A stretch of DNA of 64,000 bases from Escherichia coli (GTDB lineage: Bacteria; Pseudomonadota; Gammaproteobacteria; Enterobacterales; Enterobacteriaceae), in the NCBI RefSeq assembly GCF_022846255.1, contig NZ_AP025682.1; one strand, given 5' to 3'. Numbering within the stretch: the first letter of the stretch is position 1; every line of letters begins with the position of its first letter. Positions 1-3,000 of this stretch are shown in pieces. The position numbers are program-made.

Positions 1-3000
1 GCGCTAAACGGGGACGTTTATGCGCACATACAATCCAAACTCTCTTCTCCCTTCACAGATGCAGAAATGCACCTGCGATTTTTTGCATCCTGCGTTTGAC
101 CTCTGCGGAGGTGAAGCGTGAACCTCCCACAAGACGGCATCAAATTACATCGCGGCAACTTCACCGCTATCGGCCAGCAGATCCAGCCTTATCTGGAGGA
201 AGGCAAATGCTTTCGCATGGTGCTTAAACCGTGGCGGGAGAGACGCAGTCTTTCCCAGAATGCACTTAGCCACATGTGGTACAGCGAAATCAGTGAATAC
301 CTCATCAGCAGGGGTAAAACGTTCGCCACTCCAGATTGGGTAAAAGATGCTCTCAAACACACTTATCTCGGTTATGAAACCAAAGAACTGGTTGATGTCG
401 TATCTGGTGAGATCACCACTATTCAGTCATTACGCCATACCTCCGATCTTGATACCGGAGAGATGTATGTCTTCCTGAGTAAGGTTGAATCTTGGGCGAT
501 GAATATTGGCTGCCACCTGACTATTCCGCAGAGCTGCGAGTATCAGCTGCTGCGTGATAAGCAGGAGGCGTAATGGCTACACCGCTTATTCGTGTCATGA
601 ACGGACACATCTACAGAGTACCAAATCGTCGTAAGCGTAAGCCTGAGCTGAAACCATCCGAAATACCAACACTGCTCGGATATACCGCCAGCCTGGTTGA
701 TAAAAAATGGTTGCGACTGGCAGCAAGGAGGAATCATGGCTGATTTGAGAAAAGCAGCGCGTGGTCGGGAATGCCAGGTAAGAATCCCTGGCGTATGTAA
801 TGGCAATTCTGAGACGTCTGTACTGGCACATATCCGGCTGGCTGGATTGTGCGGTACCGGTATCAAACCGCCAGACCTGATTGCCACCATTGCATGTTCT
901 GCCTGCCACGACGAAATCGACCGCCGCACACATTTTGTCGATGCTGCATATGCAAAAGAATGCGCGCTGGAAGGTATGGCGAGAACACAGGTTATCTGGC
1001 TGAAAGAGGGGGTAATCAAGGCGTGAATACTTACCACATCACACTACCCTGGCCGCCGAGCAATAACCGCTACTACAGGCATAATCGCGGGCGCACGCAC
1101 ATCAGCGCAGAAGGGCAGGCATACCGTGATAACGTCGCCCGAATCATTAAAGGCTCAATGCTGGATATCGGTCTGGCTATGCCTGTGAAAATCCGCATTG
1201 AGTGCCACATGCCGGATCGCCGTCGCCGTGACCTGGATAATCTGCAAAAAGCCGCTTTTGACGCACTCACTAAAGCAGGTTTCTGGCTGGATGATGAGCT
1301 GGTCGTTGATTACCGCGTTGTGAAGATGCCTGTTACCAAAGGTGGGAAGCTGGAACTGACCACCACTGAACTGGGAGATGAATGATGTTTGAGTCTTATA
1401 TGGCAGAACGTCTTCGCCGCCGCTGGGTGCGCCTGCGCTTATATCGTTTTATTGATTTTTGCTGGCAATTGGCGTGCTAGCCTGATTTTTGTGGGGAAAG
1501 TTGATGCGTGATATTCAGATGGTTCTTGAGCGTTGGGGGGCATGGGCGGCTAATAACCACGAGGATGTAACCTGGTCATCCATTGCTGCCGGTTTTAAGG
1601 GATTAATTCCTTCAAAAGTAAAGTCTCGCCCACAATGCTGTGATGATGACGCGATGATTGTTTGTGGATGTATGGCTCGCCTGAAAAAGAACAATAGCTA
1701 TTTGCATGATTTACTAGTGGATTATTATGTCGGGGGTATGACATTTATGTCACTGGCAAGTAAGCATTGTTGCTCTGATGGTTATATCGGGAAAAAGTTA
1801 CAGAAGGCTGAGGGAATAATTGAAGGGATGTTAATGGCATTAGATATACGGTTAGAGATGGATATCGTTGTTACTAAGTCTAATTAATACGCTAATTATT
1901 TACTAAGTGTTATTAAAAAAGGGGCGTAGAAACGCCCCCAAAAATAAAGGGTAATATATAACAGAAGGTTTATATAGTCAGAAGCAAGGTAGTGCTTCTA
2001 AAGGAAGTGGCTTGAGGGAGCCACTTATATGTTGGGGAGGTAAAGCCTCCCGCAACATATCTTTTTCGTAACCAGATTAGAACTGGTAAACCAGTCCTAC
2101 GGCAACGATGTCGTCAGTGCTTACACCAAGTGCTTTAGTGAAGTCGTTTTTGTCAAGCAGGTTGATCTTGTAATCAACGAAAGTAGACATGTTTTTGTTG
2201 AAGTAATAAGTTGCACCTACATCAACATATTTGACTAAGTCCTGATCGCCCCATACTCCAAGATCCTTACCTTTAGATTGCAGGTAAGCAACGGACGGAC
2301 GCAGACCGAAATCGAACTGATATTGTGCAACAGCTTCGAAGTTTTGAGCTTTATTAGCAACGAAGTGATCAGCAAATACAGTCATATTCTGGGTTTCAGA
2401 ATAGGTAGTGGCCAGGTAAATGTTGTTAGCGTCATATTTCAGACCTGCGGCCCAAATTTCTGCATTTTTACCGGAAGCAAATACTTCAGGAAGAACTTTG
2501 CCTGCATTGACTTGAGTGTCGGTACGATCAGATTTCGCATAAGTCGCACCAATGCCGAATCCTTCGTATTCATAGGTAGCAGAGAAACCGAATCCATCAC
2601 CGTTACCTTCGGTGTAGTTATCGAAATCGCTACGATCGTTTTTACCTTGGTACTGAGCAGCAAAGTTCAGACCATCAACCAGACCAAAGAAGTCGTTGTT
2701 ACGGTAAGTTGCAACACCAGTTGCACGTTGAGTCATGAACACGTCGGTTTGAGTCCAAGTGTCACCACCGAATTCTGGCAGGACGTCAGTCCACGCACCG
2801 ATGTCGTATGCTACACCGTAGTTACGACCGTAATCGATGGAACCGTAGTCACCGAATTTCAGGCCTGCAAATGCAAGACGGGTTTTGTCTTTGGCGGAAC
2901 CTTGAGATTCAGCGCGGTTGCCTTTGAATTCATATTCCCACTGACCGAAACCAGTCAGTTGATCGTTGATTTGGGTTTCACCTTTGAAGCCCAGACGAAC

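What the first reader, a model, noticed from the sequence alone, without database searches (positions are those of the whole stretch)
20..1480. Small phage genes invisible to the 60-aa ORF track in the nin region
Three tightly packed short ORFs with start/stop overlaps typical of translational coupling are absent from the track: a 33-aa ORF (20-121) ending inside the ybcN start region, NinE (574-744, 56 aa) and a 32-aa ORF (1382-1480) overlapping the rusA stop. The two unnamed ones are rich in Cys/Arg or Trp/Arg and may be real micro-proteins.
Basis: seen in the sequence. Interest (0 to 1): 0.3.

Follow-up and report, generated by a model that had tools for sequence, protein, structure and literature searches.

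The report
Known nin-region small genes ylcH, ninE, ylcG
The three short reading frames are real but already known prophage genes (ylcH, ninE and a truncated ylcG), so the finding is ordinary; the first looks more like a translated leader in a folded RNA than a working protein.

Summary
All three ORFs exist. NinE is at 573-743, not 574-744. The start/stop overlaps are as described. None is new. E. coli K-12 annotates them as ylcH (33 aa), ninE (56 aa) and ylcG (46 aa). The 1996 phage 82 record X92588 lists them as orf33, orf56 and orf45.

NinE is a conserved protein under purifying selection (pN/pS 0.21); its function is unknown.

ylcH shows no selection on its peptide: pN/pS is 0.77-0.86, variable sites are spread evenly over codon positions, and the cysteines are replaced in Klebsiella phages. 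Its architecture is nevertheless kept. In 97 of 98 distinct leaders, the start codon lies in a GNRA-loop hairpin and the stop is a TGA overlapping the next gene's start. Its 3' end pairs with the ybcN ribosome-binding site. I read it as a leader ORF that unmasks ybcN translation; this is inferred, not shown.

The 32-aa ORF is a rare ylcG allele, found in 24 of 5,426 complete E. coli genomes. A 104-bp deletion removed the constrained C-terminal half, so its Trp/Cys tail is translated from former intergenic DNA. NCBI's PGAP annotation pipeline calls this allele a pseudogene in the nearest genome.

Verdict: already known, low interest.

The parts
1..25 (+). Hairpin 2 of the nin leader: GCGCTAAACG-GGGA-CGTTTATGCGC. 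It has a 10-bp stem with one bulged base and a GNRA loop (the annotated ylcH ribosome-binding site GGGGA). The ylcH ATG (20-22) lies in the 3' arm.
   Evidence: Sequence. Single match in the window. Part of the minimum-energy fold of window 1-130, z-score -4.7. 13-20 distinct stem variants keep pairing and the GGGA loop. Own-arm mean dG is -14.3 kcal/mol against -6.5 for arms swapped between variants.
20..121 (+). ylcH (orf33 of phage 82), 33 codons. Best read as a leader ORF translationally coupled to ybcN.
   Evidence: ORF. K-12 b4588 and phage 82 orf33 sit at the same position. 30/33 identical to K-12 YlcH. Exact sequence in public annotation. pN/pS 0.86 with segregating sites 10/9/9; 0.77 with 18/18/18 in a broader set.
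58..89 (+). Hairpin 3 inside ylcH (GATGCAGAAATGCACCTGCGATTTTTTGCATC). The core is conserved at the nucleotide level.
   Evidence: Minimum-energy fold. The core is conserved across Escherichia, Klebsiella and Enterobacter phages, including at synonymous positions. Covariation was not tested for this hairpin.
92..119 (+). Hairpin 4: GCGTTTGACCTC-TGCG-GAGGTGAAGCGT. It pairs the ybcN Shine-Dalgarno sequence (GGAGG, 107-111) and reaches the GTG start. Its 5' arm is ylcH coding sequence.
   Evidence: Minimum-energy fold. 52 distinct 3' segments all fold the same way: mean dG -15.0 against -7.8 for shuffles, with 85% of Shine-Dalgarno bases paired. Three different stem sequence families occur.
118..573 (+). 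ybcN (NinB/Orf-family, 'DNA base-flipping protein'), 151 aa, GTG start.
   Evidence: pN/pS 0.11.
573..743 (+). ninE, 56 aa. A conserved small basic protein of unknown function.
   Evidence: NCBIfam NF007245 141.7 bits against cut-off 88. phrog_288 E=1e-35. Pfam NinE 23.4 bits, just under its cut-off of 25. Intact at 56 aa in 81 of 82 related loci (the 82nd gave no complete translation). pN/pS 0.21 against 1.34 and 0.72 in the other frames. Homologues across Enterobacteriaceae.
736..1026 (+). ybcO (PF07102, putative nuclease), 96 aa. Contains at 775-790 the sequence reported as a HusR box in K-12.
   Evidence: PMC12844172.
1023..1385 (+). rusA, Holliday-junction resolvase, 120 aa, GTG start.
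   Evidence: pN/pS 0.19.
1382..1480 (+). Truncated ylcG allele, a 32-codon ORF. Codons 1-23 are YlcG; codons 24-32 are out-of-frame read-through into former intergenic DNA.
   Evidence: NF033498 26.8 bits, under cut-off 30, matching profile positions 1-21 only. Full-length alleles score 76-77 bits. Pseudogene in NZ_CP195804. The exact protein is absent from a collection of about 15 billion sequences.
1446..1450 (+). Junction of the 104-bp deletion. GTTTT is one copy of the short direct repeat that flanks the deleted segment in full-length alleles.
   Evidence: Pairwise alignments to L013, L065 and K-12. The junction 40-mer occurs in 24 of 5,426 complete E. coli genomes. The ylcG 3' half occurs in 2,956 of 5,426.
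1504..1887 (+). quuD (Q-family antiterminator), 127 aa. The truncated ylcG ORF ends 24 nt upstream of its ATG.
   Evidence: PF06530 E=1e-53. Annotation of the homologous loci.

Best explanation
SHOWN. Window 1-1900 is a phage-82/DLP12-type nin module. The three short ORFs are its known small genes: ylcH (orf33), ninE (orf56), and a deletion allele of ylcG (orf45).

NinE is a genuine protein. It is conserved, under purifying selection, and has homologues across Enterobacteriaceae. Its function is unknown. The structure model is weak (mean pLDDT 68.5): a basic, unstructured centre and one long C-terminal helix. My guess is that it is an accessory factor of the neighbouring recombination proteins.

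The 32-aa ORF is what remains of ylcG after a 104-bp deletion between GTTTT repeats. The deletion removed the C-terminal half, the only part of YlcG with a coding-type substitution pattern. It also shifted the frame into intergenic DNA.

INFERRED (about 0.5). ylcH is a leader ORF whose translation matters, rather than its peptide. The mRNA across ylcH folds into three hairpins.
1. The first holds the ylcH AUG in its stem and the purine-rich ribosome-binding site in a GNRA loop.
2. The last hairpin uses ylcH coding sequence to pair with the ybcN Shine-Dalgarno sequence and start codon.
3. Ribosomes that translate ylcH to its UGA, which overlaps the ybcN GUG, would melt that last hairpin and so switch on ybcN translation.
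4. The first hairpin would set how often this happens.
For: Identity:
- K-12 annotation gives ylcH/ybcN/ninE/ybcO/rusA/ylcG/quuD in the same order and with the same overlaps.
- The phage 82 record X92588 lists orf33, orf56 and orf45, each with a ribosome-binding site.
- Protein comparisons agree, as does the exact-sequence look-up.

NinE:
- NF007245 scores 141.7 bits and phrog_288 matches.
- pN/pS is 0.21, against 1.34 and 0.72 in the other frames.

ylcG remnant:
- The deletion is mapped.
- The allele is rare: 24 genomes against 2,956 of 5,426.
- pN/pS of the C-terminal codons 24-46 is 0.35, against 11.7 and 0.86 in the other frames. The N-terminal half gives 0.71.
- Two natural variants carry compensated double frameshifts that restore the C-terminal frame.
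- The family model is failed by the window allele and passed by full-length alleles. PGAP labels the allele a pseudogene.
- PMC12844172 cites Hemm et al. 2008 for stationary-phase induction of ylcG.

ylcH leader model:
- pN/pS is 0.86 and 0.77, no better than the other frames, with variable sites spread evenly over codon positions.
- Cys17 and Cys19 are replaced by A/G/S/V in other phages.
- In 98 distinct leaders the ORF always starts in hairpin 2. In 97 it ends in a TGA overlapping the next gene's start (ATGA 74, GTGA 23). This holds across several unrelated NinB-type N-termini. ORF lengths differ only by whole codons.
- Hairpin 2 shows covariation.
- The hairpin that sequesters the ribosome-binding site is present in all 52 distinct 3' variants, in three stem sequence families.
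- Fold z-scores are -4.7 for window 1-130 and -7.2 for the K-12 leader.
Against: - No ribosome-profiling or tagging data for ylcH could be retrieved, so its translation is unproven.
- Its start codon sits in a hairpin of about -14 kcal/mol, which should hinder initiation.
- Two other frames across the same stretch are also stop-free in 80-90% of the sequences, so an open frame alone is weak evidence.
- ybcN has its own strong Shine-Dalgarno sequence and might initiate independently.
- The broader leader set was collected with an exact 20-nt core pattern, so conservation of that core in the set is by construction.
- pN/pS values are pooled pairwise Nei-Gojobori estimates on short, recombining sequences with no tree.
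- For ORF3, the deletion allele occurs on two different N-terminal backgrounds and in 24 genomes, so it is not strongly deleterious.
Confidence: 0.75

Rival explanations
1. YlcH is a functional cysteine-containing micro-protein, for example a small metal-binding or regulatory peptide.
For: The ORF is intact in every locus examined. It has a purine-rich ribosome-binding site at the correct spacing. It is annotated in K-12, phage 82, HK225 and Chronis. A short motif, T-x-DFLH(S/P)A, recurs.
Against: pN/pS is 0.77-0.86, with equal variation at all three codon positions and no advantage over the other frames. Cys17 and Cys19 become A/G/S/V in Klebsiella-type leaders. The N-terminal third is replaced wholesale between lineages. 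The C-terminal residues track whichever ribosome-binding-site hairpin the downstream gene uses. There is no Pfam, NCBIfam or PHROG family. The DFLHSA core is also conserved at synonymous sites, which points to a constraint on the RNA.
Confidence: 0.12
2. The ylcH ORF is incidental and not translated. The region would be purely a structured 5' leader of the nin operon, acting in mRNA stability, as a factor-binding site or as a thermosensor, and it happens to lack stops in one frame.
For: The start codon is buried in a stable hairpin. There is no coding signature. Frame +1 and one reverse frame are also open in 80-90% of sequences. Strong, covarying structure runs throughout.
Against: In 97 of 98 distinct leaders the ORF ends in a TGA overlapping the downstream start, although several unrelated downstream N-termini are involved. 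That requires the second codon of each to begin with A. Length changes of the ORF (31, 32, 33, 34 and 36 codons) are all in frame. An ATG or GTG is kept 5-8 nt after the GGGA loop in all hairpin variants.
Confidence: 0.3
3. The 32-aa ORF at 1382-1480 is a functional new micro-protein: the Arg-rich YlcG N-terminus with a novel hydrophobic Trp/Cys tail.
For: It keeps the ATGA overlap with rusA and a GGGAGA ribosome-binding site. It is found in 24 genomes and on two different N-terminal backgrounds. One genome annotates it as a hypothetical protein.
Against: It is in only 0.4% of complete E. coli genomes, against 54% that carry the full-length 3' half. It has lost the only part of YlcG with coding-type constraint. 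The new tail comes from non-coding DNA after a 104-bp, non-triplet deletion between GTTTT repeats. It is below the family cut-off and called a pseudogene. The exact protein is absent from the protein collection.
Confidence: 0.07

Closest known systems
Phage 82 nin region, GenBank X92588 (orf33, orf151, orf56, orf96, rus, orf45, Q). From my own knowledge this is Mahdi, Sharples, Mandal & Lloyd 1996; that paper was not read here.
   Same: Same gene order, same overlaps and the same three small ORFs. The record also annotates a ribosome-binding site for each, a putative -35/-10 promoter, and the dyad I call hairpin 1 as a 'possible regulator-binding site'. The leader is 96% identical to K-12.
   Different: In phage 82, orf45 is full length (46 codons) and overlaps the Q start. 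The window has a 104-bp deletion in that gene and a different Q (quuD type), 24 nt downstream.
E. coli K-12 DLP12 prophage genes ylcH (b4588), ninE (b0548), ylcG (b4509)
   Same: Homologous genes in the same positions. YlcH is 30/33 identical, NinE 55/56, and the YlcG N-terminal 23 residues 17/23.
   Different: The window's prophage is a complete lambdoid prophage lying next to the fadJ-sixA chromosomal region. It is not the defective DLP12 element itself. Its ylcG is truncated. Its porin gene (2077-3234) is intact.
Lambda NinE (nin60), Pfam PF05322
   Same: A small basic protein encoded just after ninB and before a nuclease gene. The window protein matches the C-terminal two thirds of the Pfam model.
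   Different: It is distant from lambda's own NinE: 23.4 bits, just under Pfam's cut-off of 25. It belongs to the phage 82/DLP12 subfamily (NF007245). No function is known for any member.
Leader-peptide translational coupling by unmasking a ribosome-binding site, as in tap-repA of plasmid R1 or coat-replicase of RNA phage MS2 (from my own knowledge)
   Same: A short upstream ORF ends at or over the downstream start. The downstream Shine-Dalgarno sequence is held in a hairpin whose other arm lies inside the upstream ORF. The peptide sequence is unconstrained.
   Different: This is an analogy of mechanism only. No experiment links ylcH translation to ybcN expression, and no antisense RNA or other regulator is known here.

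Membership tests
NinE family (NCBIfam NF007245 / Pfam PF05322 / phrog_288) | Whole-protein score at or above the curated cut-off of the family model | tested here: met
   NF007245 scores 141.7 bits against cut-off 88, covering 1-56 of 56. phrog_288 E=1.2e-35. The Pfam model alone is marginal (23.4 against 25), but the cluster's precomputed Pfam label is PF05322.
NinE family (NCBIfam NF007245 / Pfam PF05322 / phrog_288) | Position directly after a ninB/ybcN-type gene in a lambdoid nin region, with purifying selection on the frame | tested here: met
   Synteny. pN/pS 0.21 against 1.34 and 0.72 in the other frames.
YlcG family (NCBIfam NF033498; phrog_2705) | Whole-protein score at or above the curated cut-off of 30 bits, covering the model | tested here: not met
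   The window ORF scores 26.8 bits and matches profile positions 1-21 of 41 only. phrog_2705 matches positions 1-21 of 46 only. Full-length alleles score 76-77 bits.
YlcG family (NCBIfam NF033498; phrog_2705) | Conserved C-terminal half (PGSVLTDYRILKNYAKTL...) | tested here: not met
   Removed by the 104-bp deletion and replaced by IDFCWQLAC.
YlcG family (NCBIfam NF033498; phrog_2705) | Start overlapping the rusA stop (ATGA) and a homologous N-terminus | tested here: met
   Window 1382-1385. Residues 1-23 are identical to the N-termini of full-length alleles such as L013 and L065.
YlcH / phage 82 orf33 | Sequence identity and position immediately upstream of ybcN, with a 4-nt stop/start overlap | tested here: met
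   30/33 identical to K-12 YlcH. The exact sequence is annotated on at least 1000 contigs. Same position in K-12 and phage 82.
Functional (selected) micro-protein, applied to YlcH | Excess of synonymous over non-synonymous change in the annotated frame | tested here: not met
   pN/pS 0.86 with variable sites 10/9/9. pN/pS 0.77 with 18/18/18, the same as the other frames.
Leader ORF that activates the downstream cistron by unmasking its ribosome-binding site (tap-repA type) | Stop of the leader ORF at or over the downstream start, kept across relatives | tested here: met
   97 of 98 distinct leaders end in ATGA or GTGA at the start of a long downstream ORF.
Leader ORF that activates the downstream cistron by unmasking its ribosome-binding site (tap-repA type) | Downstream Shine-Dalgarno sequence paired with sequence inside the leader ORF | tested here: met
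   Predicted only. Window 92-119. All 52 distinct 3' variants fold this way: mean dG -15.0 against -7.8 for shuffles, 85% of Shine-Dalgarno bases paired, three stem families.
Leader ORF that activates the downstream cistron by unmasking its ribosome-binding site (tap-repA type) | Downstream translation depends on translation of the leader ORF | not testable with these tools
   Needs reporter fusions with start-codon and stop-codon mutants of ylcH.

The most novel reading that the evidence does not exclude
The stretch annotated as ylcH may be the 3' part of an uncatalogued cis-regulatory leader RNA, shared by many enterobacterial lambdoid phages.

Its parts, in order:
- a promoter overlapped by a TTGATT-N6-AATCAA palindrome;
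- a 5'-terminal hairpin with a nearly invariant CUGAAC loop;
- a GNRA-loop hairpin holding the leader start codon;
- a hairpin that masks the ninB/ybcN ribosome-binding site.

Together these would gate expression of the nin recombination genes, and perhaps read-through to Q, in response to a phage or host factor that recognises the conserved loops. Most of the element lies just upstream of window position 1.
Probability: 0.3. Interest if true: 0.45.

Novelty: already known. Interest (0 to 1): 0.12.

Why it matters
As a gene-finding result it matters little. A 60-aa ORF filter hides three genes that standard annotation already lists, one of which is a decayed allele here.

Two modest points are useful.
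- Codon-substitution analysis separates the three cleanly. NinE is a real protein. YlcG is real in its C-terminal half, which is lost here. ylcH behaves as RNA rather than as a protein. This is a caution against counting every conserved short ORF as a micro-protein.
- The ylcH region is part of a strongly structured leader with covarying stems that has no Rfam family. It could explain how nin genes such as rusA are kept nearly silent in prophages.

Tried and rejected
**Literature**
- Full-text searches for ylcH and ylcG found only incidental mentions.
- Hemm et al. 2008 is not held in the library.
- The ribosome-profiling papers that are held do not mention these genes in text or in the supplements available. 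I therefore could not settle whether YlcH has been detected.

**Family and homology searches**
- Pfam has no model hit for YlcH or YlcG in the local copy, although precomputed labels list PF26818 for YlcG.
- Rfam gave no credible hit for the K-12 ylcH leader-to-quuD stretch.

**Ideas considered and dropped**
- A zinc-knuckle reading of YlcH: the only hit was to a CCCH finger at E=0.04, and the Cys residues are not conserved.
- An intrinsic terminator inside ylcH (a lambda tR2 analogue): the scan found only a weak 5-bp stem, and the T-run varies among alleles.

**Methods that did not work**
- A MAFFT plus RNAalifold consensus of the leaders failed because of inconsistent gaps. I replaced it with loop-anchored folding and an arm-swap control.
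- The AlphaFold model of NinE was too weak for a fold search (pLDDT 68.5, pTM 0.28), so none was run.
- The put-like antiterminator idea for the two-hairpin leader was not tested.
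Full report
**What is there.** Window 1-1900 carries, on the + strand, a chain of genes whose stops and starts overlap:
- a 33-codon ORF (20-121);
- ybcN (118-573, GTG start);
- a 56-codon ORF (573-743);
- ybcO (736-1026);
- rusA (1023-1385, GTG start);
- a 32-codon ORF (1382-1480);
- after a 24-nt gap, quuD (1504-1887).

These come, with family assignments. The overlaps are GTGA, TAATG, 8 nt, GTGA and ATGA. Short ORFs as such are common here: 51 of at least 20 aa overlap the first 3 kb. So the question is identity, not existence.

**Identity.**
- The 2-kb block matches more than 4,000 E. coli genomes at 90-95% identity. Its features are annotated there as ybcN, ninE, ybcO, rusA, a YlcG family protein and quuD.
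- In K-12 MG1655 the same positions are ylcH (b4588, 33 aa), ninE (b0548, 56 aa) and ylcG (b4509, 46 aa).
- The phage 82 record X92588 annotates orf33, orf56 and orf45, each with a ribosome-binding site. It also annotates a putative promoter and a 'possible regulator-binding site' upstream.
- The window's YlcH is 30/33 identical to the K-12 protein and its NinE 55/56. The exact YlcH and NinE sequences are in public protein sets on at least 1000 contigs each.
- The two 'unnamed' ORFs are therefore named, long-known genes.
- The window is E. coli (fadJ-sixA region 99.5% identical). Its prophage is a full-length lambdoid element rather than DLP12 itself.

**NinE.**
- It passes the NCBIfam subfamily model (141.7 bits against 88) and phrog_288.
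- It is intact at 56 aa in 81 of 82 related loci; the 82nd gave no complete translation.
- pN/pS is 0.21, against 1.34 and 0.72 in the two other frames, and variable sites are enriched at third positions.
- Homologues extend across Enterobacteriaceae, with a conserved motif PS(E/D)IPTL.GYTA.LVD.KWLRLAARR.
- It is a real protein of unknown function. The AlphaFold model is weak (pLDDT 68.5). It shows a basic, unstructured middle and one long C-terminal helix, so I ran no fold search.

**The third ORF is a decayed ylcG.**
- Among 77 related loci, 46-aa YlcG is the rule. The 32-aa form appears only in the window, in its closest E. coli relative and in one viral contig.
- Alignment to full-length alleles shows a 104-bp deletion flanked by GTTTT direct repeats. 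It removes codons 24-46, the stop and part of the spacer. The frame then runs into former intergenic DNA, which gives ...YRF|IDFCWQLAC.
- The junction 40-mer occurs in 24 of 5,426 complete E. coli genomes. The ylcG 3' half occurs in 2,956.
- Within full-length ylcG, only the C-terminal half shows a coding-type pattern. pN/pS is 0.35, against 11.7 and 0.86 in the other frames. The N-terminal half gives 0.71, and codon 16 takes seven different amino acids.
- Two natural variants carry compensated double frameshifts that restore the C-terminal frame. This again points to that half as the selected part.
- The window allele scores 26.8 bits against the YlcG model, whose cut-off is 30, and matches positions 1-21 only. 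Full-length alleles score 76-77.
- PGAP labels the same allele 'incomplete... missing C-terminus'.
- A 2026 paper reports rusA-ylcG as an operon activated by HusR in stationary phase. It cites Hemm et al. 2008 for stationary-phase induction of ylcG. I could not read Hemm et al. directly.

**ylcH: an ORF that is kept, a peptide that is not.**
- In 75 close relatives (24 distinct sequences) the ORF is always open. However, pN/pS is 0.86 and variable sites fall 10/9/9 over the three codon positions. The neighbouring genes give 0.07-0.19.
- I then collected 98 distinct leaders from viral contigs of Escherichia, Klebsiella and Enterobacter phages, using a conserved 20-nt core. pN/pS is 0.77, variable sites fall 18/18/18, and this is indistinguishable from the other frames.
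- The N-terminal third is replaced wholesale between lineages: [50 protein letters not shown]. Cys17 and Cys19 become A/G/S/V. The last eight residues switch among [15 protein letters not shown] and LPLGGGV, according to the downstream ribosome-binding site.
- The architecture, by contrast, is nearly invariant. The start is an ATG or GTG 5-8 nt after a GGGA loop. ORF lengths differ only by whole codons (31, 32, 33, 34, 36). In 97 of 98 leaders the stop is a TGA overlapping the ATG or GTG of a long downstream ORF, although several unrelated NinB-type N-termini are involved.
- Openness alone is weak evidence. Frame +1 and one reverse frame are also stop-free in 80-90% of the sequences.

**RNA structure explains the nucleotide conservation.**
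- Window 1-130 folds into three hairpins (1-25, 58-89, 92-119) with a z-score of -4.7. The K-12 leader from the predicted transcription start folds with a z-score of -7.2 and adds a 5'-terminal hairpin.
- Hairpin 2 (window 1-25) has 13-20 distinct stem sequences with an invariant GGGA loop. Own arms fold at a mean of -14.3 kcal/mol. Arms swapped between variants fold at -6.5, and fewer than 1% of swaps reach the median own-arm value.
- Hairpin 1 lies just outside the window. It has 59 distinct arm pairs around a conserved CUGAAC loop (-13.3 against -7.5 kcal/mol).
- Hairpin 4 pairs the ybcN Shine-Dalgarno sequence and reaches its start codon. All 52 distinct 3' variants form it (-15.0 against -7.8 kcal/mol for shuffles, 85% of Shine-Dalgarno bases paired), using three different stem sequence families.
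- Upstream, all loci share a TTGATT-17 nt-CATAAT promoter-like site overlapped by a TTGATT-N6-AATCAA palindrome. DNA to its left is unrelated between loci, and often ends in an intrinsic terminator.
- Rfam has no matching family.

**Mechanism proposed (inferred, about 0.5).** ylcH is a leader ORF. Ribosomes that start at the AUG in hairpin 2 and read to the UGA over the ybcN GUG would unwind hairpin 4 and expose the ybcN ribosome-binding site. The stability of hairpin 2 would set the rate. This accounts for four things:
- the ORF is kept;
- the stop/start overlap is kept;
- the peptide is unconstrained;
- the nucleotides and stems are conserved.

It resembles tap-repA of plasmid R1 and other cases where translation unmasks a ribosome-binding site (my own knowledge). 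The main rival (about 0.3) is that the ORF is incidental and the region acts purely as structured RNA. The micro-protein reading gets about 0.12.

**Verdict.** The finding is not new. The two 'candidate micro-proteins' are a known leader-type ORF with no protein-level constraint and a rare truncated allele of a known small gene. Interest is low. The only lead worth keeping is the structured nin leader, most of which lies just upstream of the window.

Noticed in passing
Upstream of window position 1, seen in related loci: L002 (K-12) 4285-4345; L001 1437-1494; L083 (phage 82) 50-110: A conserved module precedes ylcH in all related loci. It has a sigma70-like promoter (TTGATT, 17 nt, CATAAT) overlapped by a TTGATT-N6-AATCAA palindrome. 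Next comes a hairpin at the predicted 5' end of the transcript, with a nearly invariant CUGAAC loop and 59 distinct covarying arm pairs. DNA to the left is unrelated between loci and often ends in an intrinsic terminator (GGCCTCTCCGGAGGCCTTTTT). Phage 82's record flags the dyad as a 'possible regulator-binding site'. There is no Rfam family. The function is unknown.
   Followed up: partly
window 1427-1429 (ylcG codon 16) and the same codon in L003-L082: Codon 16 of ylcG is hypervariable among otherwise close alleles. It takes M, G, V, I, R, W and L (ATG, GGG, GTG, ATA, AGG, TGG, CTG), while the flanking codons (R14, W15, L18, R19) are fixed. The window has GTG (Val). Unexplained.
   Followed up: no
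Proteins P0073 and P0044 (YlcG variants): Two natural YlcG variants carry a frameshift followed about 10 codons later by a second one that restores the frame (RLRLYRFPGSV becomes VCAYIVSPVLF or ASALISFPPALF). This keeps the C-terminal LTDYRILKNYAKTL in frame.
   Followed up: partly
window 775-790 (+), inside ybcO: An exact copy of CAGGTAAGAATCCCTG. PMC12844172 reports this sequence as a HusR (YnfL) box upstream of rusA in K-12 DLP12, which suggests the same host regulator could act on this prophage's rusA.
   Followed up: partly
window 2077-3234 (-): An intact 385-codon ORF lies on the opposite strand between quuD and the lysis genes. The homologous gene in the nearest E. coli genome is annotated as porin OmpC, 1083 bp. 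It sits at the nmpC position of DLP12. From my own knowledge, the K-12 copy is interrupted by IS5. It is a cargo gene carried by the prophage.
   Followed up: no
window ~3900-29000 and ~30000-64000: Long + strand ORFs from about 3.9 to 29 kb look like a complete lambdoid late region. From about 30 kb the window is E. coli chromosome (fadJ, fimbrial usher, sixA; 99.5% identical to several strains). So the prophage carrying this DLP12-type nin module is not at the DLP12 locus.
   Followed up: partly
L083 (phage 82) 1496-1636, and loci such as L080: ylcG has two alternative C-terminal endings that track the downstream antiterminator. The ending ...TLKGAAA* overlaps the start of a phage 82-type Q (ATGA). 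The ending ...TLTGAGV* is followed by an 85-nt spacer and quuD. In the phage 82 arrangement, ylcG may itself be coupled to Q translation.
   Followed up: no
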